Below are positions 34,326-44,535 of a stretch of DNA of 64,000 nt, piece by piece (position 1 is the first letter of the stretch; the number at the start of each line of letters is the position of its first letter). Where the stretch lies: contig JADLHZ010000104.1 in the NCBI GenBank assembly GCA_020848545.1, positions 72,306-136,305 on the forward strand, read 5' to 3'. The position numbers and the translations under genes were made by a program. The notes under the pieces were generated by a model. It saw only the letters and a list, made by a program, of their open reading frames with translations, was not told where the DNA came from and ran no database searches. This stretch comes from Deltaproteobacteria bacterium. Lineage in GTDB: Bacteria; Myxococcota; JADLHZ01.

Positions 34326-36080
<1,755 letters not shown>

Positions 36081-36136
36081 CCGTGTCGTCCATTGTAGCA
36101 GGATCTCGCGCAGAACCTCAGATCAGTTCGCGGGGC

Positions 36137-37687
36137 TCAGTTGGCGGGACAGCTGAGCGGCACTTGCGGCCACCGCGGCGGGCTGGCGTTCGGGTCGAAG
36201 CCTTCGAAGGTGTTGCCGAGCTTCGGATCCGTGTAGCTCGTCAGCAAATTGCCGCCGCCCGTGTTGTTGCGGATGCCCGAGCCGGCGATGAAGCGGAAGG
36301 TGCTGTTCGTGATCGGCGGGCCTTCGTAGTCCCAGCCGATGCCGCGGAAGAACACGATCGCCGCGATGCCGTTGCCCTTGTCGTTGCAGTTGTAGACGGT
36401 GTCTTTGCCGGTGCCGCCGCCGTACTCGAAGATGACGTGATCGAAGCGCGACATGCCGAGGCGCTTCTTCTTCGCGCAGTCTTGGGCGCCGGGGCAGAAG
36501 CAGCCCGGCACGAAGACGATGCTCGGCCAGTCGCCCGGCTGGGGATCTTCGCCGCGCACGAACGCGTCGGAGGTGAAGACGATCGGCTCTTCCTTCGTGC
36601 CGACCGCCTCGATGTTCGCGAAGCTGTTGCCGCCGTCGCAGATGCGCAGCGAGCCGCCGTTGCTCAGCGCGATGACCGTGCCGGGATCGATCTTCAAGGT
36701 CGGCGGCTCGTCCGGGTAGCCGTTCACTTTCATGTTCTGAATGTTGCGCCAGACCAGGCCCTTCTGCAGTTTGTGCAGCGTGACGTTCTGATCGATGTTC
36801 ATGCCTTCGGCGTGATCGAGCTGGATGTAGCGGGCCGCCGGCGGGATCTCGCCGACCTTGAACGTCTCTTCGGTCACGGTGTGTGCGGCGTAGGGATGAA
36901 TGCGCAAGGTCGGGTAGCCGTCGTACCAATAACGCTTCGCCTGATCGTCGGTGTAATTGTTGTAGACGATGCGCGTCTCCGGCGTGAACCCCGAGGTGAG
37001 GTTCTGCAGGCCGAGGCGTTGGCTCGAGTAATAAGTCACGTGTTGCAGGTCGAGCGGCGGCGCCTTGAAGTCCGGAAAGGTGCTCAACGGGTGGCCCGAG
37101 CCGCTGCCGCCGGCGTTGTAGACGTCGACGTACTGGAGCGTGGACTGATCGTTCAGCGCGCCAGACGCGAAGTACATGCCGCCCCAGTACTCGTTCTTGC
37201 CGTTCTGCGAGGTGAAGACGATGTGCTTGTCGGGCTTGCCGAGCATCTTCACCCACGCTTTTTCCATGAACTCGATGTTGCCCGGCGGCGGATTGGCGCT
37301 GCCTTCGGTCGGAAAGTCCGCGTAGGTCATGCAGATGACGGTGCCGGCTTGGATCGTCAGCGACTTCTTGATGTGGATCGGGCCGTGGATCGAATAGACG
37401 TTGTCCGGCGTCCACACTTCGTCTTTTTCCAAGACGGCGTTCGGGTTCAGCGTATGACCGTAGACTTTGACCGGCTTACCGCTGTCGAGCGGGCAGGGCA
37501 TGCGCGGCGTCTTGCCGCCGGTCGCTGCCGGCGCTTTGCCGCCGGCGCTCGGTGGGGCGCTCGCTGCGGGTGTTGGGGCTGCGACTGCCGGAGCTTCCTT
37601 CGCCGGCTTCGCTTTACCTTTCTTGGCCGCGATGAAGGTGAAGGCCACACAACACAGCAGGAGGGGACGCCATGGCTTTCGGTTCAT
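36137..37687 (-). CDS. Secreted hypothetical protein
   Basis: Signal peptide; 516 aa; Asn/Gly/Thr-rich, consistent with a beta-helix fold. Confidence 0.55.
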   Translation of the reverse strand: MNRKPWRPLLLCCVAFTFIAAKKGKAKPAKEAPAVAAPTPAASAPPSAGGKAPAATGGKTPRMPCPLDSGKPVKVYGHTLNPNAVLEKDEVWTPDNVYSIHGPIHIKKSLTIQAGTVICMTYADFPTEGSANPPPGNIEFMEKAWVKMLGKPDKHIVFTSQNGKNEYWGGMYFASGALNDQSTLQYVDVYNAGGSGSGHPLSTFPDFKAPPLDLQHVTYYSSQRLGLQNLTSGFTPETRIVYNNYTDDQAKRYWYDGYPTLRIHPYAAHTVTEETFKVGEIPPAARYIQLDHAEGMNIDQNVTLHKLQKGLVWRNIQNMKVNGYPDEPPTLKIDPGTVIALSNGGSLRICDGGNSFANIEAVGTKEEPIVFTSDAFVRGEDPQPGDWPSIVFVPGCFCPGAQDCAKKKRLGMSRFDHVIFEYGGGTGKDTVYNCNDKGNGIAAIVFFRGIGWDYEGPPITNSTFRFIAGSGIRNNTGGGNLLTSYTDPKLGNTFEGFDPNASPPRWPQVPLSCPAN

Positions 37688-37731
37688 GCGGCCGATTGCC
37701 GCGAGGACGAGGGCGGGTCAAGCTGCTGTGC

Positions 37732-38865
37732 TCAGTCCCCGAAGCCCATGCCGATCGCGCGCGCCATCCGCACGAGCTCGCCTTTTGGATCGACGCGCTT
37801 CTCAATCGCCACGGCCTTGTCGAGCGGCGTCGTGATCATGCGATCGCCCTCGACGCCGACGAGCACGCTCTCTTCGCCGCGCAAGAAGGCGTCGACGGCG
37901 TGCGCGCCCATGCGGGTGGCGAGCAGGCGATCGTACGATGACGGCGTGCCGCCGCGCTGGATGTGCCCGAGCACGGTGACGCGCACTTCGCGATCGGTGC
38001 GCTGGATGATCTCGTGTGCGACGACGTGGCCGACGCCGCCGTAGCGGGGCATGGCGCCTTTCCTTGTCTCGAGGATGGTCACGTCGCCGCCCTTCGCCTT
38101 CGCGCCTTCGGCGACGACGACCAGCGAGAAGAAGGTGCCGCGCCGCACGCGGTGCGTGATCCGATCGATGATCGCCGCCATGTCGTACGGGATCTCGGGG
38201 ATGAGGCAGATGTCGGCGGCGCCGGCGATCGCCGTGTGCAGCGCGATGAAGCCAGCGTCTCTGCCCATGACCTCGAGGATCATCACGCGGTCGTGGCTCT
38301 CCGCCGTCGAGTGCAGGCGATCGAGCGCTTCGGTCGCGATCTCGACGGCGGTGTTGAAGCCGAAGGTGACCTCGGTGCCGCCGAGATCGTTGTCGATCGT
38401 CTTCGGCACGCCGATGACGTTGATGCCGCGCGCGACGAGCTCGAGCGAAATCCGCTGGCTGCCGTCGCCGCCGACCGAGATGACGGCGTCGATGCCGAGC
38501 GCCTTCAGCTTGCCCATGACCTCGGGCGATCGATCGATCGTGCCCCTGCCGCCTTTATCGGTCTCGAAGCGAAAGGGATTGCCGCGGTTCGTGGTGCCCA
38601 AGATGGTGCCGCCGCGGTTCAAGATGTCCTTGACGTCGTCGTTCGTGAGCTCGCGCACCTTGCCGTTGCCGAGGAGGCCGCCGAACGCGCGCTCGATGCC
38701 GAAGACGCGCACGCCGTTTTGCGCCGCGGTCTTCACCACCGCACGAATGACCGCGTTCAGGCCGGGGCAGTCGCCGCCGCCGGTCATGATCGCGACGCGT
38801 TTTTCGCCGGCCGGCTTCTTCTGCCACTCTGTCGGCCAATCGGAAGGCCAGGGTACGTTGCTCAT
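37732..38865 (-). CDS. pfk: 6-phosphofructokinase (ATP- or PPi-dependent)
   Basis: Internal ATG start (377 aa); motifs GGDCPGLNAVIRA, GGDGS, MGRDAGFIA; upstream ORF extension is Arg-rich. Confidence 0.9.
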   Translation of the reverse strand: MSNVPWPSDWPTEWQKKPAGEKRVAIMTGGGDCPGLNAVIRAVVKTAAQNGVRVFGIERAFGGLLGNGKVRELTNDDVKDILNRGGTILGTTNRGNPFRFETDKGGRGTIDRSPEVMGKLKALGIDAVISVGGDGSQRISLELVARGINVIGVPKTIDNDLGGTEVTFGFNTAVEIATEALDRLHSTAESHDRVMILEVMGRDAGFIALHTAIAGAADICLIPEIPYDMAAIIDRITHRVRRGTFFSLVVVAEGAKAKGGDVTILETRKGAMPRYGGVGHVVAHEIIQRTDREVRVTVLGHIQRGGTPSSYDRLLATRMGAHAVDAFLRGEESVLVGVEGDRMITTPLDKAVAIEKRVDPKGELVRMARAIGMGFGD

Positions 38866-39890
38866 GCGGGGGTCCTCTTCAGATGCGCACTCGCCGGCAA
38901 AAACGCCAGCGCGGTGCAAAATGCCATCATCGCGAGGGTGAAGGCGAGCGTCGCCGGCCAATCGAAGGTGCCTTTGTAGCGGTGAAAGTAGAGCCCGTAG
39001 CAGAGCTCCACGTGCACCCAATAAATGACGAGCGAGCGCCGCCCGAGCAAGGTGAAGGTGCTTACGAAGCGGGTCGTGCGTTCCAAGTAGAGCGACGCCG
39101 GCCACAGCAAGCCGAGCGCCAGCGCCGTGCGTTCGAGCGTGAACACCGGGTGGATGTTCGTGCGGCTGAACGCGAGCGGGCCGGGGAAGAGCGCGCGGAC
39201 GAGGAAGATCAGCGGGTAGGCGACGAAGAGCCACTTCGCCAGGCCGAACAAGCGCGTGGCGGTGTGCGCTTTGCCGTCCTTCGTGGCGTACGCTCCGAGC
39301 GCGGCGCCGAGCAACGCGACGCCGGCCCACGGAAAGAGCGGAAAGAGCGCGAATTGCGGCGGGCCGCCCAAGTGGTGGCGAAGCGGACCGGGAACGTTCG
39401 CGAGCCAGTCGGCCTTCGCGATGAGCGGCGTGACGAGCACCGTGATGAGGCCGGTCACGGCGAGCGCGGTGGCTTCGTGATGCCGGGCGAGCCGGTGCAC
39501 GAGGACGCAGAGCAAGATCGAGAGGCCGATGCAGTTGAGCACGTCGACCCGCAGGAGCATGCCCGAGTACGAGCCGTCGCCGCCGAGCGCCCACTCTTGG
39601 ATGCGAAAGAGCAAGGACAGCAGCCAGATCTCGACGCCTCTGCGAAACATCGCGCCGGCGCCTTGGGTGATCGCGAGGCTGGTGGCGAGGCCGGCGAGGG
39701 CGAGGAACATCGGCGCGGCGCCGCCGCCGAGGTAGTAGCTGAGATCGCCGTAGAAGCTCTTCTTCGTGGCGGCGGAGCCGAAGCTGTCGAACGCGTGCAG
39801 GAGAATCATGCACAGCACGGCGCCGCCGCGCACACAGTCGACGGCGGCGAGGCGCGGCGCCGGTCTCTGGCCGGTCTGGGGGACGAGCAC
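38862..39890 (-). CDS. Polytopic membrane protein (DUF1624 / acyltransferase-3-like)
   Basis: About nine hydrophobic helices; stop overlaps the pfk start by 4 nt. Confidence 0.55.
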   Translation of the reverse strand: MLVPQTGQRPAPRLAAVDCVRGGAVLCMILLHAFDSFGSAATKKSFYGDLSYYLGGGAAPMFLALAGLATSLAITQGAGAMFRRGVEIWLLSLLFRIQEWALGGDGSYSGMLLRVDVLNCIGLSILLCVLVHRLARHHEATALAVTGLITVLVTPLIAKADWLANVPGPLRHHLGGPPQFALFPLFPWAGVALLGAALGAYATKDGKAHTATRLFGLAKWLFVAYPLIFLVRALFPGPLAFSRTNIHPVFTLERTALALGLLWPASLYLERTTRFVSTFTLLGRRSLVIYWVHVELCYGLYFHRYKGTFDWPATLAFTLAMMAFCTALAFLPASAHLKRTPA

Positions 39891-39933
39891 CGGGCCCGTT
39901 GATACGCTTTTTCAGGCGTGGTCAAGTTGTCGG

Positions 39934-41601
39934 ATGTCGTTCTATCAGACGCCGCCCGTGCTGGAGAATCAGTTCACGACCGATCGCCTGCTGCGGACGT
40001 ACTTGCAGCGCACGCTCGGCGACGCGCTCGCGTCGGTGACGCCCGAGCTCGACGCGCTGGGAGCGCTGACCGCCGGCGAGATGTGGCAGCGTGCGCGGGC
40101 GGAGCGCGACGACGAGCCGTCGTTGGCGCAGTGGGACGCGTGGGGCCATCGCGTCGATCACATCGAGCTCTCGCACAGCTGGAAGCACGCCAAGCGCATC
40201 GCGTGCGAGTTCGGCCTGGTCGGCACCGCGTACGAACGCAAGCTCGGCGCGTTGTCGCGCGTCTTGCAGTTCGCCAAGGTGTACCTGTTCGAGCCGTCGA
40301 GCGACACGTATTCCTGCCCGTTGGCGATGACCGACGGCGCTGCCAAGACGCTGCTCACGCACGAGAACAGGGCGCTCATCGATCGTGCGGTGTCGCGGCT
40401 GACTTCTCGCCGCGCTGAAGACGCGTGGACGAGCGGGCAGTGGATGACCGAGCGCACCGGCGGCTCCGACGTGAGCAAGACCGAGACCGTCGCGCGGCTC
40501 GTGGACGGTGAATACCGGTTGTACGGCACGAAGTGGTTCACCTCGGCGACGACGTCGGAGATGACGCTGACTTTGGCGCGACCCGAAGGGCAACCGGAAG
40601 GGAGCCGCGGGCTCTCGTTGTTCTACTTGGAGCGCGCGCGCGCGGACGGATCGGCGAACGGCATCACGGTGAATCGGCTGAAGGACAAGCTCGGCACGCG
40701 CAAGCTGCCGACGGCGGAGCTTTTACTCGACGGCGCCATCGCGGTGCCGGTGAAGGGCATCGGCGACGGCGTGCGCAACATCGCGCCGATGCTGAACGTG
40801 ACGCGCTTGTGGAACTCGGTGTGCGCCGCGGCGGGCATGCGGCGCGGCATCGCTCTGTCGCGCGACTACGCGAGACGCCGGCTCGCGTTCGGCATGCCGC
40901 TGTCGCAGAAGCCGCTGCACCTCGATACGCTCGCGGGGATGCAAGCGGAGCTGGAGGCCGGGTTCATGCTCGCGTTCCGGGTGGCGGAGCTGCTCGGCGC
41001 CGACGAAGCGGGGCAGAACGCGCAGCCCGAGCTCGCGCGCCTGGTGACGCCGCTGGCGAAGCTGACGACGGGCAAGCAAGTCGTCGCGGTGGCGAGCGAA
41101 GCGCTCGAGTGCTTCGGCGGGGCGGGGTACGTGGAAGACTGCGGCGTCTCGCGCTTGCTGCGCGACGCGCAGGTGCTGCCGATCTGGGAGGGGACGACGA
41201 ACGTGTTGTCGCTGGACACGCTGCGGGTGCTCGCCGGCGGCGCGGGCCATGCGGCGTTGCTCGAGGACACGGCGCGGCTCATGAAGGAGACGAAGGACAA
41301 GGAGCTCGCTGCGGTGGCGTCGTCCGGGCACGAAGCGATCGGGCGGACGGTGGCGAAGGCAGGCGAGCTCGCGGGCCGCGATCCGGTCGCGGTCGAGCAG
41401 GCGGCGCGGCGCGTGGCGATGACGCTCGGGCGATCGTACGCGTTGGTGCTTTTGTGTCATCACGCGGACTGGTGTTTGCGGACGCTCGGGGATCGACGGT
41501 CACGGGCGGCGGCGTTGCGCTTCGCGGCGCATGGCTTCGATCTGATGAGCCGGCCGGAGGTCGCCGTGCGCGAGGACGAGGCGGCGATGGCCATGGAGTG
41601 A
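39934..41601 (+). CDS. Acyl-CoA dehydrogenase family protein (AidB-like)
   Basis: Internal ATG MSFYQTPP; 555 aa; acyl-CoA dehydrogenase middle and C-terminal domains (GTKWFTSA..., ALECFGGAGYVED). Confidence 0.8.
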   Translation: MSFYQTPPVLENQFTTDRLLRTYLQRTLGDALASVTPELDALGALTAGEMWQRARAERDDEPSLAQWDAWGHRVDHIELSHSWKHAKRIACEFGLVGTAYERKLGALSRVLQFAKVYLFEPSSDTYSCPLAMTDGAAKTLLTHENRALIDRAVSRLTSRRAEDAWTSGQWMTERTGGSDVSKTETVARLVDGEYRLYGTKWFTSATTSEMTLTLARPEGQPEGSRGLSLFYLERARADGSANGITVNRLKDKLGTRKLPTAELLLDGAIAVPVKGIGDGVRNIAPMLNVTRLWNSVCAAAGMRRGIALSRDYARRRLAFGMPLSQKPLHLDTLAGMQAELEAGFMLAFRVAELLGADEAGQNAQPELARLVTPLAKLTTGKQVVAVASEALECFGGAGYVEDCGVSRLLRDAQVLPIWEGTTNVLSLDTLRVLAGGAGHAALLEDTARLMKETKDKELAAVASSGHEAIGRTVAKAGELAGRDPVAVEQAARRVAMTLGRSYALVLLCHHADWCLRTLGDRRSRAAALRFAAHGFDLMSRPEVAVREDEAAMAME

Positions 41602-41682
41602 GGGACAAACTTGCACCCCGCGCGCCCTGCCGTGCCGCAGCGGAGCGGAGTCGGCGGTGGGGGCGTACGGCCGGGGCGTCGA

Positions 41683-41790
41683 TCGTGCGGCGGTCGTCGT
41701 CATCACGGCCGGGCGCGCGGCGTCCGGCGCTGCAAACGTGAGTGCGCGCACCGCCCGCGCCACGCTGCGCGTGTCACGGGCGCTGCACAT
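41683..41790. repeat. Left arm of an imperfect inverted repeat flanking the HNH gene
   Basis: Reverse complement closely matches 43388..43500, including the shared core gtgcgcgcaccgcccgcgccacgctgcgcgtgtcacgggcg; boundaries approximate. Confidence 0.55.
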
Positions 41791-41792
41791 GG

Positions 41793-43019
41793 TTAGCCGC
41801 GGCGCGCTGGGCTCGCTTTTCCCGCCCAGCCGCAGCACCGCACGAGCGAGTTGACGACGTAGTGATAGTCCATCGTCGCGTACTTCGGCATCACCATCTC
41901 GGCGGTCGCGAGCGCGGTGCCAGTCGGCGAAGGCAGCGCGGGCGGTGCATTGGCGATCGGTGCGCCGCGCGGATCCCTGAACACGATGAGCCCGTTCGCA
42001 TCGCGCTTCACCGCGTAGCCGTGCTCATGAACGAAGCGATGGTGGCGGCGACAGAGCGAGACGAGGTTCTCCAACGTCGTCGCGCCGCCTTGGCTCCAGT
42101 GTTCGACGTGGTGGCCGTCGGTGAACGTGTTCGTGCAACCAGGGAAACGGCACGTGCCGTCTCGTTCTTTGAGCTTCCGGCGCAGCGGCGTCGAGATCAC
42201 GCGTGTCTTGCGTCCGATATTGACCACGTTGCCGTCCTTGTCGTGCGTCATCGTCACGATGCTCGCGTCGCACGCGAGACGGCGCGAGACTTCCGCGGAA
42301 ACGCCGACACCTTCGATCTCGGCGCGGCCGTCCAAAGCATCGTGCGTGAGCACTTCGGCGTCGACATGCACGACCACCTGCACGCGATCGGCGCTCGAAG
42401 CTTCGCTGCGCGCGCCCGACAGCGCTTCCTCGGAAACGCGCACGAGCGCATCGGCGAGACGCTTGCCCGCGGGCATCCGTTCCTTCGGCGAGGGCACCGC
42501 TTCGAGCATCTTCATGATCATCGCGCCTTCGTCGGGAAGGAAGCGCCCCTGCATCACGAACATGCCGTCGTCGTCGAAGAAGCACGTGAGGCTGCGCGCC
42601 TCCTCGCGCTTCTCCGCTGACTCGAGCGTCTCGACCCGCCGCACGCCCCGCACGACTTTCTCGAGCGCCGCGGCGGAGATTTCCTTCGCGACCATGAGCA
42701 GCTCTTCCTCTTTCTCGGGCGTCGCGATGCGCGTGAGAGCGCGGACCTTCGAGTAGGACAACGCGCCCGACGCAAACGCCGCGTCGATCTTCGGCAGCTT
42801 CGCGATCGCATGCGCCACGCGCACCTTCTCGCGCGCGGTAGGCAACGAGAGGCCGAGGCGATAGTTCAAGTAGTGCGCGGTCGACAGGTACGCCATCGAC
42901 GCGAACACCTCGCGCTCGTCGAACTCGCGGATCTTCACGAGCAGCCGGTGCGTGATTGCCGTGAACTCGGCACCGAGGGCAGCAATCTCTGAATCCAACG
43001 CGTCTGTTTCTTCGCTCAT
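41793..43019 (-). CDS. HNH endonuclease domain protein (DUF222 / 13E12-repeat-like)
   Basis: C-terminal HNH motif (CRFPGC...DGHHVEHWSQGG...NLVSLCRRHHRFVHE) with an N-terminal DUF222-like helical region; start taken at internal ATG (MSEETD). Confidence 0.75.
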   Translation of the reverse strand: MSEETDALDSEIAALGAEFTAITHRLLVKIREFDEREVFASMAYLSTAHYLNYRLGLSLPTAREKVRVAHAIAKLPKIDAAFASGALSYSKVRALTRIATPEKEEELLMVAKEISAAALEKVVRGVRRVETLESAEKREEARSLTCFFDDDGMFVMQGRFLPDEGAMIMKMLEAVPSPKERMPAGKRLADALVRVSEEALSGARSEASSADRVQVVVHVDAEVLTHDALDGRAEIEGVGVSAEVSRRLACDASIVTMTHDKDGNVVNIGRKTRVISTPLRRKLKERDGTCRFPGCTNTFTDGHHVEHWSQGGATTLENLVSLCRRHHRFVHEHGYAVKRDANGLIVFRDPRGAPIANAPPALPSPTGTALATAEMVMPKYATMDYHYVVNSLVRCCGWAGKASPARRG

Positions 43020-43387
43020 GACGACTCTTCTACCACGCACTTTTTCGACGCAGCCGTAGGCCCGCTGCGAAGCGCAAAGTGATCGATCCACGAAAAATCT
43101 CTCGCCACCGCACCGCGCGTCGTGTGCGCGGCAATAGGCTCAGCAAGAGCCTTCGCCGACGCGACTCAGCAAACGACCGCTGCACAGCGAAAAAACCCGT
43201 CAAGAGGCAATCGCGAAAAAGATAAAAAACACCGAGAAACGCCGCATGAAACCGCAGCCGCGTTTCCGCGGTAGCGTTCGCGCGCGATGACAGCGAAGCT
43301 GAGTGACAGCGGCGCCGGGCGAGCCCCGCCCAGACGCCCCGAGCGCTGCGGCTGGGCGGGAGAGCGAGCCCGAAGCGCCGCGGCAAA

Positions 43388-43500
43388 TCAAGTGCAACGC
43401 CCGTGACACGCGCAGCGTGGCGCGGGCGGTGCGCGCACTCTCGTTCGAAGGTACAGACGCCGCGCGCCCGGCCGCGACGACCGCGACCGCCGCATGCTCG
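43388..43500. repeat. Right arm of the inverted repeat flanking the HNH gene
   Basis: Inverted copy of 41683..41790 (about 85-90% identity over the matching blocks, divergent centre). Confidence 0.55.
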
Positions 43501-43551
43501 CTGCCACCGGCCGCATGCCCCCGCCGCGCTCCTCGCTCCGTTGCTCCAGGT

Positions 43552-44535
43552 TCAGCGGCAGACGAGCTTCGCCAAGCACTTTCCGGTCGACAGCTCGCAG
43601 CGGTAGCACGTGCCGCAATCGACGTTCGCCGTGCATCCGCCGCCGCTCGTCGTTGGTCTGTCGTCGGGCGTCGTGCCTGTGCGGGTTCCGGTCCACGACC
43701 ACTTCTGCGGCGTTGTGCTGCCGGAGTAGTCCCAGCCGCCCGTGAAGCTCTCGCCGGCGCCGCTGAACACGAACTGATAAGGCCCGGATGCGCTGCCGTC
43801 TTGATGCCACGTCCCGGTGAGCACGCATCCGGCGAGCTTGCCGTCGAAGGTACCGAGCGAGCCTTGGGTGCCGCGATACCACCCGACGACGTCGCTGCCG
43901 TTTTGGCTGAGGTTCACCGGCTGCGTGTAATCCTTGCCGTCGTTCGCATTGCGTTCTTGCGAGGTGTACTTGCCGGTGACGTTCAGCGTCGCGGAGCACG
44001 TGGCGCCGGTCGTGCCAGTGGTGCCCGTCGCGCCGGTCGCGGCTTTCCATGCGATCGTCTGGCAGTCGGTGACTTGGATCGGATCGTAGAGCACATAGTT
44101 GAGCTCGCGACACACGATTGGGACGTCGCTGGTCGTGCATTTTGACACCTGCGTATCGCCGGCAAGACATCCCGTCGCGATGCAGCGGCAGTTGTTGGCG
44201 CTCTTGCAACAAGCGCCGTTCGCCGGCGGAGTGCATTCGGCCACGGTGCTGCTTGGCGCCTCGTACGCTGCTCTGCACCAACAACCGTCAGAAGAGGTGC
44301 GGCACGCGATCTGGGGGACGCCACACGAACAACGCCCTTGATCCGGAAAAGTCTTGTCCGCGCAGCAGACACCGTTGGCAAACGCTGCTGCGTTGCATGT
44401 TCCCCCGGTCTTGTCGGCCGCCTGGGTCTCGGGCGAACACTTGCACGCGTTGACCGCGTACGGATCTTTGTCGCAGCCGTAGCTGACCGCACGACACGAC
44501 GTGAGAAGCCAAAGCAGAACGAGAGCAGCACGCAT
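43552..44535 (-). CDS. Cysteine-rich secreted protein
   Basis: Signal peptide (MRAALVLLWLLTSC); over 30 Cys in the N-terminal 150 aa; Gly/Thr-rich C-terminal half. Confidence 0.6.
   Translation of the reverse strand: MRAALVLLWLLTSCRAVSYGCDKDPYAVNACKCSPETQAADKTGGTCNAAAFANGVCCADKTFPDQGRCSCGVPQIACRTSSDGCWCRAAYEAPSSTVAECTPPANGACCKSANNCRCIATGCLAGDTQVSKCTTSDVPIVCRELNYVLYDPIQVTDCQTIAWKAATGATGTTGTTGATCSATLNVTGKYTSQERNANDGKDYTQPVNLSQNGSDVVGWYRGTQGSLGTFDGKLAGCVLTGTWHQDGSASGPYQFVFSGAGESFTGGWDYSGSTTPQKWSWTGTRTGTTPDDRPTTSGGGCTANVDCGTCYRCELSTGKCLAKLVCR

What the first reader, a model, noticed from the sequence alone, without database searches (positions are those of the whole stretch)
41683..43500. HNH/DUF222 endonuclease gene bracketed by ~110 bp imperfect inverted repeats: candidate small mobile or formerly mobile element
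The sequence just before the HNH gene stop (41683..41790) and a segment ~370 bp beyond its start (43388..43500) are reverse complements of each other, with long identical blocks (e.g. agtgcgcgcaccgcccgcgccacgctgcgcgtgtcacgggcg) and a divergent centre. The repeat even generates matching peptide strings in shadow ORFs (RAPPAPRCACHGRCT, SSRPGARR). DUF222-HNH proteins are associated with repeated, mobile-like loci in other high-GC bacteria.
Basis: seen in the sequence. Interest (0 to 1): 0.6.

Follow-up and report, generated by a model that had tools for sequence, protein, structure and literature searches.

The report
Repeat-family HNH gene with extra inverted end
The inverted repeat is real, but it does not mark the two ends of a jumping gene: one arm is the normal upstream end of a multi-copy DUF222-HNH nuclease cassette (the myxobacterial counterpart of the mycobacterial REP13E12 repeats) and the other is a stray, inverted extra copy of that end left by a rearrangement.

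Summary
Two ~200-nt arms (41637-41838 and 43343-43544) are 83% complementary (BLAST E ~1e-54) and bracket an intact DUF222+HNH gene. An independent assembly reproduces the left junction.

The "IR-bounded mobile element" reading is only partly supported.
- The right arm is the native 5' end of a repeat unit (arm + conserved 76-nt palindrome + promoter region + ORF). This unit recurs in probably at least 7 paralogous copies of the same Polyangia-like MAG, with different flanks.
- A 75% paralog starts its homology exactly at the arm's outer edge.
- Two paralog loci with DNA (90% and 75%) have no 3' arm. Three further paralogs stop 2-3 codons after "NSL".
- None of 51 distant relatives has a bracketing inverted repeat. 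There is no target-site duplication and no transposase.

The left arm is joined at the native stop codon, and its inner breakpoint lies at the centre of the palindrome. It differs from the right arm about as much as paralogs differ at neutral sites. I read it as the relic 5' end of another, inverted copy, at a synteny breakpoint.

This is a new member of a known, mechanistically unexplained repeat family, of moderate-to-low interest. The palindrome and the ParB-like fold of DUF222 are the useful leads.

The parts
41637..41838 (+). Left arm: an extra, inverted copy of the unit's 5' module (outer edge at 41637, inner edge at ~41838). It supplies the last ~14 codons (…VR|CCGWAGKASPARRG*) and the stop codon of the HNH ORF. 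It contains only the outer half of the palindrome plus 7 nt of its loop.
   Evidence: alignment with the right arm and the L001 arm; paralog C-termini show the native ORF ends 2-3 codons after NSL; junction confirmed in independent assembly L059.
41793..43019 (-). DUF222 + HNH endonuclease gene (408 aa, ATG at 43019, stop at 41793-41795). All family-invariant Cys/His/Asn residues of the HNH/zinc motif are present. It is under purifying selection against paralogs.
41740..41782 (.). 43-nt block identical in both arms (partner at 43398-43440). It forms a local hairpin. It is not conserved in the L001 arm, so it is most likely a gene-conversion patch between the two arms.
   Evidence: DNA fold z = -3.2; run-length P = 0.003.
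43020..43342 (-). Leader/promoter region of the unit (GC 62%). It carries GTCGAAAAAGTG (43038-43049) and an extended -10-like GTGGTAGAA (43028-43036) just before the ATG, and the TTGACGGGTTTTT box (43191-43203). These motifs are shared with other myxobacterial DUF222-HNH subfamilies.
   Evidence: The promoter function is an inference; the sigma-70 consensus scan found nothing.
43307..43382 (.). 76-nt imperfect palindrome (arms 43307-43333 / 43352-43382, loop 43334-43351, centre ~43342/43343). It is the most conserved stretch of the whole unit. Its centre coincides with the inner end of the right arm, and therefore with the breakpoint of the left arm.
   Evidence: Near-identical between the window and L001 (one 1-nt indel in the ~58-nt core, two more differences in the outer stem), against 80% for the ORF and 58% for the leader; DNA fold z = -2.7; compensating 1-bp change CGGGC/GCCCG -> CGGC/GCCG in L001.
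43343..43544 (-). Right arm: the native 5'-terminal non-coding module of the repeat unit. Homology with paralog L001 begins at its outer edge (43539-43544), where the flanking genes differ.
39934..41601 (+). Left flank: AidB-like acyl-CoA dehydrogenase gene. It is the last gene syntenic with the nearest relative (L058, 78% aa); synteny ends at its 3' end, 35 nt before the left arm.
43552..44535 (-). Right flank: cysteine-rich secreted protein gene (no Pfam hit). Its stop codon lies 7 nt from the outer edge of the right arm. It is unrelated to the gene upstream of the L001 copy.

Best explanation
The window holds one copy of a multi-copy DUF222-HNH gene cassette. It is the myxobacterial equivalent of the REP13E12 / '13E12 repeat' loci of mycobacteria. 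The unit is: a ~200-nt non-coding 5' module (the right arm), a strongly conserved 76-nt palindrome, a promoter/leader, and the ORF. The unit ends at its stop codon. The left arm is not the element's other terminus. It is an extra, inverted copy of the 5' module, most likely the remnant of a second, oppositely oriented copy of the same repeat family. A rearrangement joined it at the native stop codon of the present copy, and its breakpoint in the donor copy lay at the centre of the palindrome.

What is shown: the anatomy, the unit boundaries, the absence of the 3' arm in other copies, the synteny break, and the age of the arm.

What is inferred: (1) the relic-of-another-copy history; (2) that the protein, a ParB/KorB-like DNA-binding domain fused to an McrA/IscB-type HNH nuclease, acts on DNA at or near its own conserved palindrome; (3) that the family spreads or rearranges by break-and-repair and recombination, as 13E12 repeats do in M. 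tuberculosis, and not by transposase-mediated cut-and-paste.
For: 1. The unit is defined by comparing paralogs. DNA homology between the window and L001 (75% aa) starts at the outer edge of the right arm (window 43539) and runs through the leader and ORF. The upstream neighbour genes are unrelated.
2. The 3' boundary falls at the stop codon. Paralogs end …NSLVRD*, …NSLVRA*, …NSLAGR*; the window reads …NSLVR|CCGW… into the arm. L054 (90%) loses homology at window 41843, then has unrelated DNA and another gene. The L001 stop is followed after 32 nt by an Imm33 gene. An nhmmer arm profile finds only three arm copies: two in the window and one in L001.
3. The family is multi-copy. Six further paralogs carry accessions MCC6807338-MCC6812392, in the same block and under the same organism name as the window's MCC6810418/419/421, on six other contigs. 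The ENA sample ERZ27258515 holds the window locus (L059) plus two other copies (L054, L001).
4. The left arm differs from the right arm by 17% (22% outside the 43-nt identical patch). The window and L054 ORFs differ by 17.4% at third codon positions. The arm is therefore as old as the paralog split, and the L054-type copy lacks it.
5. The left arm stops inside the loop of the palindrome, which is the most conserved part of the unit.
6. The unit sits exactly where synteny with the nearest relative ends.
7. Family context: in Gordonia, at least 16 copies share a ~1.7-kb unit made of upstream non-coding DNA plus the ORF, ending in hairpins just after the stop, with no TIRs. No bracketing IR occurs in 51 relatives. 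In M. tuberculosis, 13E12 repeats are LexA-controlled (PMC3381160), are hot spots of gene conversion (PMC13061034), and are breakpoints of large inversions (PMC13157036).
Against: So I could not look for the reciprocal junction, for solo arms, or for other copies with a 3' arm. That all paralogs belong to one genome is inferred from accession numbering and shared sample, not shown. Homologous recombination between inverted copies would not by itself create an arm-to-stop-codon junction, so an illegitimate or site-specific break must be assumed. The arm may evolve faster than third codon positions, which weakens the dating argument. No binding or cleavage of the palindrome by the protein has been tested.
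Confidence: 0.55

Rival explanations
1. Local inverted duplication. The left arm was copied from this copy's own 5' module, for example by fold-back or template switching at the palindrome or by repair of a break at its centre, and was placed at the 3' end of the same unit. No second element copy was ever present here.
For: The left arm spans exactly from the unit's outer edge to the palindrome centre. The 43-nt identical patch shows the two arms have exchanged sequence. The arms resemble each other (83%) more than either resembles the L001 arm (72-76%).
Against: Outside the identical patch the arms differ by ~22%, more than the neutral divergence to the L054-type paralog (17.4%), which lacks the 3' arm. 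A fold-back at the palindrome would place the copy next to the 5' arm, not 1.5 kb away at the stop codon.
Confidence: 0.2
2. One reading: a ~1.9-kb transposon-like element with ~200-bp terminal inverted repeats whose nuclease is the DUF222-HNH protein. The window copy is the complete form, and L001, L054 and the other paralogs have lost the 3' repeat.
For: The symmetric structure fills the whole gap between two convergent genes. The 5' arm's outer edge is a true unit boundary. The family is multi-copy and sits in varied contexts. The relative L058 lacks the unit at this position.
Against: No 3' arm in the two paralog loci with DNA. Three more paralogs have short native C-termini, incompatible with the same ORF-arm junction. 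The window ORF has lost its native stop and reads into the arm. No TSD. No bracketing IR in 51 relatives or at the ends of the Gordonia units. No DDE, HUH, serine or tyrosine recombinase domain.
Confidence: 0.12
3. The arm is an independent short repeat (MITE/REP-like) that happened to land on both sides of the gene.
For: It is a discrete ~200-nt module with the same two boundaries in three contexts.
Against: All three known copies touch a DUF222-HNH gene. In L001 and the window the arm is contiguous with the conserved palindrome and leader. No solo copies occur in the 64-kb window, the 59 loci, JGI metagenomes, IMG/VR or plasmids. No TSD.
Confidence: 0.05
4. The repeat is functional as a repeat: either an invertible segment (recombination between the arms flips the gene) or long-range 5'/3' RNA pairing that controls HNH expression.
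For: 200-nt arms at 83% with a 43-nt identical core can recombine, and the gene-conversion patch shows that they interact.
Against: The independent assembly shows the same orientation. The conserved promoter-like motifs lie downstream of the 5' arm, so the arm is probably not in the mRNA. The arms do not fold better than shuffled sequence (z = +1.0 and +1.7). The arrangement is unique to this copy.
Confidence: 0.05

Closest known systems
REP13E12 / '13E12 repeat family' (DUF222-HNH) loci of Mycobacterium tuberculosis and other Actinobacteria
   Same: Same domain pair, PF02720 + PF01844. Several diverged copies per genome. The repeat unit is upstream non-coding DNA plus the ORF, without terminal inverted repeats. 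There are signs of gene conversion between copies. The unit lies at a rearrangement breakpoint (compare PMC13157036). It is used as an insertion site by another mobile element: a RIT element here, phiRv1 in M. tuberculosis (PMC3381160).
   Different: The host is a Polyangia-like myxobacterium. No LexA box of the Myxococcus type is present, whereas the Gordonia and proteobacterial relatives show LexA-like boxes. This subfamily has its own ~200-nt 5' module and a 76-nt conserved palindrome. This copy carries an extra inverted 5' module.
Free-standing HNH homing endonuclease genes
   Same: A self-contained nuclease gene with its own promoter, found between host genes, present or absent between relatives, with no transposase.
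   Different: Homing explains spread to the same site in other genomes, not at least 7 copies at different sites in one genome. No target site or intron/intein context is known, and cleavage is untested.
IscB / IS200-IS605 (HEARO) elements
   Same: The HNH domain is closest in sequence to IscB HNH domains (PDB E ~1e-3 over ~48 residues; NCBIfam guided_IscB 22 bits). A conserved non-coding region lies upstream of the ORF.
   Different: No RuvC or PLMP domains. The NCBIfam score is far below the cut-off (22 versus 175). No HEARO/omega-RNA or any other Rfam hit. The N-terminal domain is ParB/KorB-like. No TnpA and no IS200/605 ends.
Insertion sequences and MITEs with terminal inverted repeats
   Same: A pair of inverted repeats brackets a single ORF in an intergenic gap.
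   Different: The arms are ~200 nt and only 83% alike. There is no TSD and no transposase fold, the repeat is absent from sister copies, and the ORF reads through into one arm.

Membership tests
DUF222-HNH / REP13E12-like repeat family | DUF222 (PF02720) domain followed by an HNH (PF01844) motif with its conserved Cys/His/Asn residues | tested here: met
   Pfam 80.5 and 32.1 bits, both above cut-off. C290, C295, H303, H304, H307, N318, C323, H327 and H331 are invariant in a 45-sequence alignment and present in the window protein.
DUF222-HNH / REP13E12-like repeat family | Several diverged copies dispersed in one genome | tested here: inconclusive
   Seven proteins at 75-100% identity lie in one NCBI accession block under one organism name, on seven contigs. 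Three loci occur in one ENA sample. The full MAG could not be read, so 'same genome' is an inference.
DUF222-HNH / REP13E12-like repeat family | The repeat unit extends beyond the ORF into upstream non-coding DNA and has different flanks in each copy | tested here: met
   Window versus L001: ~525 nt of shared upstream DNA with unrelated neighbour genes. The same layout occurs in Gordonia.
DUF222-HNH / REP13E12-like repeat family | SOS/LexA control (shown for most M. tuberculosis members, PMC3381160) | tested here: not met
   No Myxococcus-type LexA box lies near the gene: one distant match with 2 mismatches in the window, fewer than chance expects. The LexA box of this lineage is unknown, so this says little about actual regulation.
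TIR-bounded transposon / insertion sequence | The same inverted repeats at both ends in independent copies | tested here: not met
   The 3' arm is absent in L001 and L054. Paralog C-termini are incompatible with it. No bracketing IR in 51 relatives.
TIR-bounded transposon / insertion sequence | Target-site duplication flanking the repeats | tested here: not met
   The flanks are …CCGTGCC | arm and arm | TCCAGGT…, with no direct repeat.
TIR-bounded transposon / insertion sequence | A transposase (DDE, HUH, serine or tyrosine recombinase) | tested here: not met
   Only DUF222 and HNH in Pfam. NCBIfam and PADLOC give only weak HNH-domain hits. The fold is ParB-like DNA-binding domain plus HNH.
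IscB / IS200-IS605 | RuvC + HNH protein reaching the guided_IscB cut-off, with an omega/HEARO RNA | tested here: not met
   22.1 bits against a cut-off of 175, HNH part only. No Rfam family matches in the window.
Free-standing homing endonuclease gene | Presence/absence polymorphism at an otherwise conserved site, and cleavage of the empty site | tested here: inconclusive
   The relative L058 lacks the unit after AidB, but synteny ends there, so there is no clean empty site. Cleavage cannot be tested with these tools.
MITE / REP-like short repeat | Many ORF-less copies dispersed in the genome | tested here: inconclusive
   None in the 64-kb window, 59 loci, JGI metagenomes, IMG/VR or plasmids. 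The rest of the source genome was not searchable.

The most novel reading that the evidence does not exclude
The 76-nt palindrome at the arm/leader boundary is the cis site of the element. In this reading, the ParB/KorB-like domain of the DUF222-HNH protein binds it, and the HNH domain cuts at its centre. The left arm, which ends exactly at that centre and is joined to the 3' terminus of another copy, would then be a footprint of such a cut repaired by end joining. That would give REP13E12/DUF222-HNH repeats a concrete mechanism for copying themselves and for the inversions and gene conversions they cause.
Probability: 0.12. Interest if true: 0.7.

Novelty: new member of a known kind. Interest (0 to 1): 0.33.

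Why it matters
DUF222-HNH (13E12) repeats are abundant in high-GC bacteria. In M. tuberculosis they drive gene conversion and large inversions, yet papers still describe them as lacking a defined function or mechanism (PMC13061034, PMC13157036). This locus adds nothing categorically new, but it offers three testable leads:
- a precise definition of the repeat unit in a myxobacterium: a 5' non-coding module, a palindrome, a promoter region and the ORF, ending at the stop codon;
- a palindrome more conserved than the coding sequence, whose centre is a rearrangement breakpoint;
- a structural prediction that DUF222 contains a ParB/KorB-type DNA-binding domain, a class that binds palindromic sites.
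It also warns scanners that a clean pair of inverted repeats around a nuclease gene need not mark an element's termini.

Tried and rejected
The source MAG beyond the window could not be read.
- The representative-genome scan did not contain the source species. It gave only relatives at 55% identity or less.
- My first inverted-repeat scan of those loci printed nothing. I re-ran it with the window as a positive control before accepting the negative result.
- The arm-pattern scans of JGI metagenomes and IMG/VR found nothing. A plasmid BLAST of arm + leader found nothing. The protein is nearly absent from phage records, 2 of 50,697.
- Rfam and tRNA scans of the window were empty.
- Whole-arm RNA folds are no better than shuffles. 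The sigma-70/terminator consensus scan was uninformative.
- The empty-site test via the AidB ortholog failed because synteny ends at the locus.
- A simple palindrome score upstream of relatives was not above shuffles in GC-rich DNA. The palindrome's significance therefore rests on conservation, not on stem strength.
- A 'GGAGCGAGG' 5'-terminal motif shared with Kofleriaceae L014 looked promising. I dropped it because the sister loci L015 and L027 lack it.
Full report

Yes, and it is larger than described. The repeat finder reports arms 41675-41822 / 43358-43505 (148 nt, 84% complementary) plus an offset 17-nt perfect extension. MAFFT and BLASTN extend the match to about 41637-41838 and 43343-43544: ~200 nt, 83% identity, two small indels, E ~1e-54. 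The quoted identical block occurs once per strand and never in 100 shuffles.

The longest identical run is 43 nt (41740-41782 / 43398-43440). That is longer than expected if the 35 differences were scattered at random (P = 0.003).

The window has no third copy, no Rfam match and no tRNA. An independent ENA assembly (L059) is 100% identical to the window over 39489-42032. That stretch covers the AidB gene, the left arm and the HNH 3' end, so the left junction is not an assembly artefact.

**2. Anatomy**

Between the arms lies one intact gene on the minus strand (41793-43019, 408 aa) with DUF222 (PF02720, 1.8e-22) and HNH (PF01844, 1.3e-7) domains. All family-invariant Cys/His/Asn residues are present. 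A 325-nt leader follows (GC 62%, against 76-77% for the arms).

The structure fills the gap between two convergent host genes. The AidB-like acyl-CoA dehydrogenase ends at 41601, 35 nt from the left arm. A Cys-rich secreted protein gene ends at 43552, 7 nt from the right arm. There is no target-site duplication. The host is a Polyangia-like myxobacterium, deposited as 'MAG: Deltaproteobacteria bacterium'.

**3. What the arms are: comparison with paralogs**

The protein family is huge, with more than 6,800 hits. The closest relatives matter most.

- *L001 (75% aa).* It shares DNA homology with the window from the outer edge of the right arm (window 43539) through the arm, leader and ORF. Its upstream neighbour (…IAHVDEL*) is unrelated to the window's Cys-rich protein. 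The right arm is therefore the native 5' end of a conserved unit.
- *The 3' side.* The conserved protein ends …YHYVVNSL in all close homologs. Paralogs then stop after 2-3 codons (…VRD*, …VRA*, …AGR*). The window instead reads …VR|CCGWAGKASPARRG* into the left arm.
- *L054 (90% aa).* It loses homology with the window at 41843, a few nucleotides from the arm's inner edge. It continues with unrelated DNA and another gene.
- *L001 downstream.* Its stop codon is followed after 32 nt by an Imm33 gene.
- *Profile search.* An nhmmer profile of the arm finds only the two window arms and the L001 5' arm among all loci held.

So the unit is [5' arm + leader + ORF], ending at the stop codon. Only the window copy has a second, inverted arm.

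**4. Copy number**

Cluster members of the close homologs carry accessions MCC6807338, 6809616, 6810472, 6810799, 6811938 and 6812392, under the same organism name, on contigs of 137, 15, 14, 122, 69 and 85 kb. The window's AidB, HNH and kinase genes are MCC6810418, 419 and 421, so numbering runs along contigs. I infer at least 7 paralogs (75-100% aa identity) in one MAG. This is an inference because I could not read that assembly. Independently, one ENA sample contains the window locus and two other copies.

**5. Is a bracketing repeat a family feature?**

No. The representative-genome scan returned 51 loci with relatives at 55% identity or less. Self-BLAST found no bracketing inverted repeat in any of them, while the window control was recovered.

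In Gordonia phosphorivorans, at least 16 copies share a ~1.7-kb unit at ~85% identity. The unit begins at a TCGAAC-TATT-GTKC box ~350 nt upstream of the ORF. From my own knowledge, that box resembles the actinobacterial LexA box. The unit ends just after the stop codon in GC hairpins whose stems co-vary. It has no terminal inverted repeats.

Proteobacterial relatives carry TACTGTATATAAACACAGTA, an E. coli-type LexA box, upstream of the gene. This agrees with the literature:
- most M. tuberculosis 13E12 genes are directly LexA-controlled (PMC3381160);
- 13E12 repeats are hot spots of gene conversion and 'lack defined biological function' (PMC13061034);
- they are breakpoints of large inversions (PMC13157036).

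**6. The palindrome**

Identity between the window and L001, by segment:

| Segment | Identity |
|---|---|
| Arm | 72% |
| Leader | 58% |
| ORF | 80% (codon positions 85 / 90 / 64%) |

One block stands out, 43307-43382. It is a 76-nt imperfect palindrome: CGCGGCGCTTCGGGCTCGCTCTCCCGCCCAG - 18-nt loop - CTGGGCGGGGCTCGCCCGGCGCCGCTG. Its ~58-nt core differs from L001 by a single 1-nt indel, with two more differences in the outer stem. L001 carries a compensating change on both sides of the stem (CGGGC/GCCCG versus CGGC/GCCG). It folds better than shuffles (z = -2.7).

Its centre (~43342/43343) is the inner end of the right arm. The left arm therefore contains only the outer half plus 7 nt of the loop, and the breakpoint of the extra arm lies at the palindrome centre. 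In the left arm this half-palindrome has accumulated several changes, as expected for a relic.

The 43-nt block identical between the two arms is not conserved in L001. It is best read as a gene-conversion patch.

**7. Age and origin of the left arm**

The arms differ by 17% overall, or 22% outside the identical patch. Third codon positions differ by 17.4% between the window and the L054-type paralog, and by 37% between the window and L001. The left arm is thus about as old as the split between paralogs, and the L054-type copy lacks it. This favours a relic of another copy over a recent self-duplication, provided arms do not evolve much faster than silent sites.

The locus is also a synteny breakpoint. 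The nearest relative (L058, AidB 78% aa) is collinear with window 35960-41547 and then continues with unrelated genes.

**8. How it probably works**

I therefore propose, as inference, a sequence-specific DNA-binding nuclease. Its gene travels and recombines as a cassette through DNA breaks and recombination between copies, not through transposase-mediated cut-and-paste. The conserved palindrome is the obvious candidate for its binding site.

Promoter-proximal motifs are shared by four myxobacterial subfamilies: GTCGAAAAA-N6-GTGGTAGA-N7-9-ATG, and a TCGAT-N6-TTGACG-N3-TTTTT box at -185 to -220. They lie downstream of the arm, so the arm is probably not part of the mRNA. No Myxococcus-type LexA box is present.

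**9. Verdict**

The repeat is real. The gene belongs to a known, repeated, mobile-like family, of which this is a new myxobacterial member. The 'inverted repeats = element termini' interpretation is not supported.

The best reading (confidence ~0.55) is a native 5' module plus a relic inverted 5' module from another copy, joined at the stop codon at a rearrangement breakpoint. Rivals:
- local inverted duplication (0.2);
- true TIR element with losses elsewhere (0.12);
- independent MITE (0.05);
- functional inverton or RNA pairing (0.05).

The full MAG would settle this within minutes of BLAST.

Noticed in passing
L001:1607-4957 (paralogous HNH gene; equivalent to window ~42053-42061): A 3.3-kb element with three tandem tyrosine recombinases (RIT-like) and 37-nt inverted repeats built of TTATGCCGC motifs interrupts the paralog's HNH gene at TGCCGC, within the codons …SLC|RRHH. 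The NCBI MAG version of the same gene (P0246) is intact. A second paralog (P0244/P0245) is truncated at the same codon. This suggests the element targets the conserved HNH-motif DNA, a parallel to phiRv1 integrating into REP13E12.
   Followed up: partly
window 42033-42162: All 19 differences between the window and the independent assembly L059 cluster in this 130-nt stretch of the HNH motif region, including a 2-nt and a 1-nt indel. Everything from 39489 to 42032 is identical. The cause is either gene conversion between paralogs or a chimeric assembly.
   Followed up: partly
window 36100-37732: About 1.6 kb present in the window but absent from the syntenic relative L058, between the kinase and PFK genes. 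It holds one 516-aa ORF (36137-37687, minus strand) with no Pfam match.
   Followed up: partly
L008:~2880-2905, L010, L025; Gordonia loci L029-L049 at the 5' edge of the repeat unit: LexA-box-like sequences lie upstream of DUF222-HNH genes in other phyla: TACTGTATATAAACACAGTA (CTGT-N8-ACAG type) in three proteobacterial MAGs, and TCGAAC-TATT-GTKC (GAAC-N4-GTTC type) at the start of at least 11 Gordonia phosphorivorans units. SOS control may be a family-wide trait.
   Followed up: partly
window 43028-43049 and 43191-43203; L001, L005, L013, L014, L015, L026, L027, L057 at equivalent positions: Myxobacterial DUF222-HNH subfamilies as distant as ~35% aa identity share GTCGAAAAA-N6-GTGGTAGA-N7-9-ATG (a possible extended -10 promoter giving a near-leaderless mRNA) and a TCGAT-N6-TTGACG-N3-TTTTT box 185-220 nt upstream.
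   Followed up: partly
L014:~2450-2600, L026, L015, L027 (about 300-450 nt upstream of the ORF): The Kofleriaceae and 'USDV' deltaproteobacterial units share a ~120-nt far-upstream block. It contains a small hairpin with a co-varying stem (CTGCGG-CCGG-CCGCG versus CTGCTG-TTGG-CAGCA). It is not recognisably homologous to the window's arm or palindrome.
   Followed up: no
window 43552-44535 (minus strand): A 327-aa cysteine-rich, signal-peptide-like protein with no Pfam match, directly upstream of the HNH unit.
   Followed up: no
L007 and L022 (contig CAVOSA010000022.1, 40683-55274): In a gammaproteobacterial MAG, a ~7-kb segment that includes a DUF222-HNH gene is duplicated 7.3 kb apart at 98% identity.
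   Followed up: no
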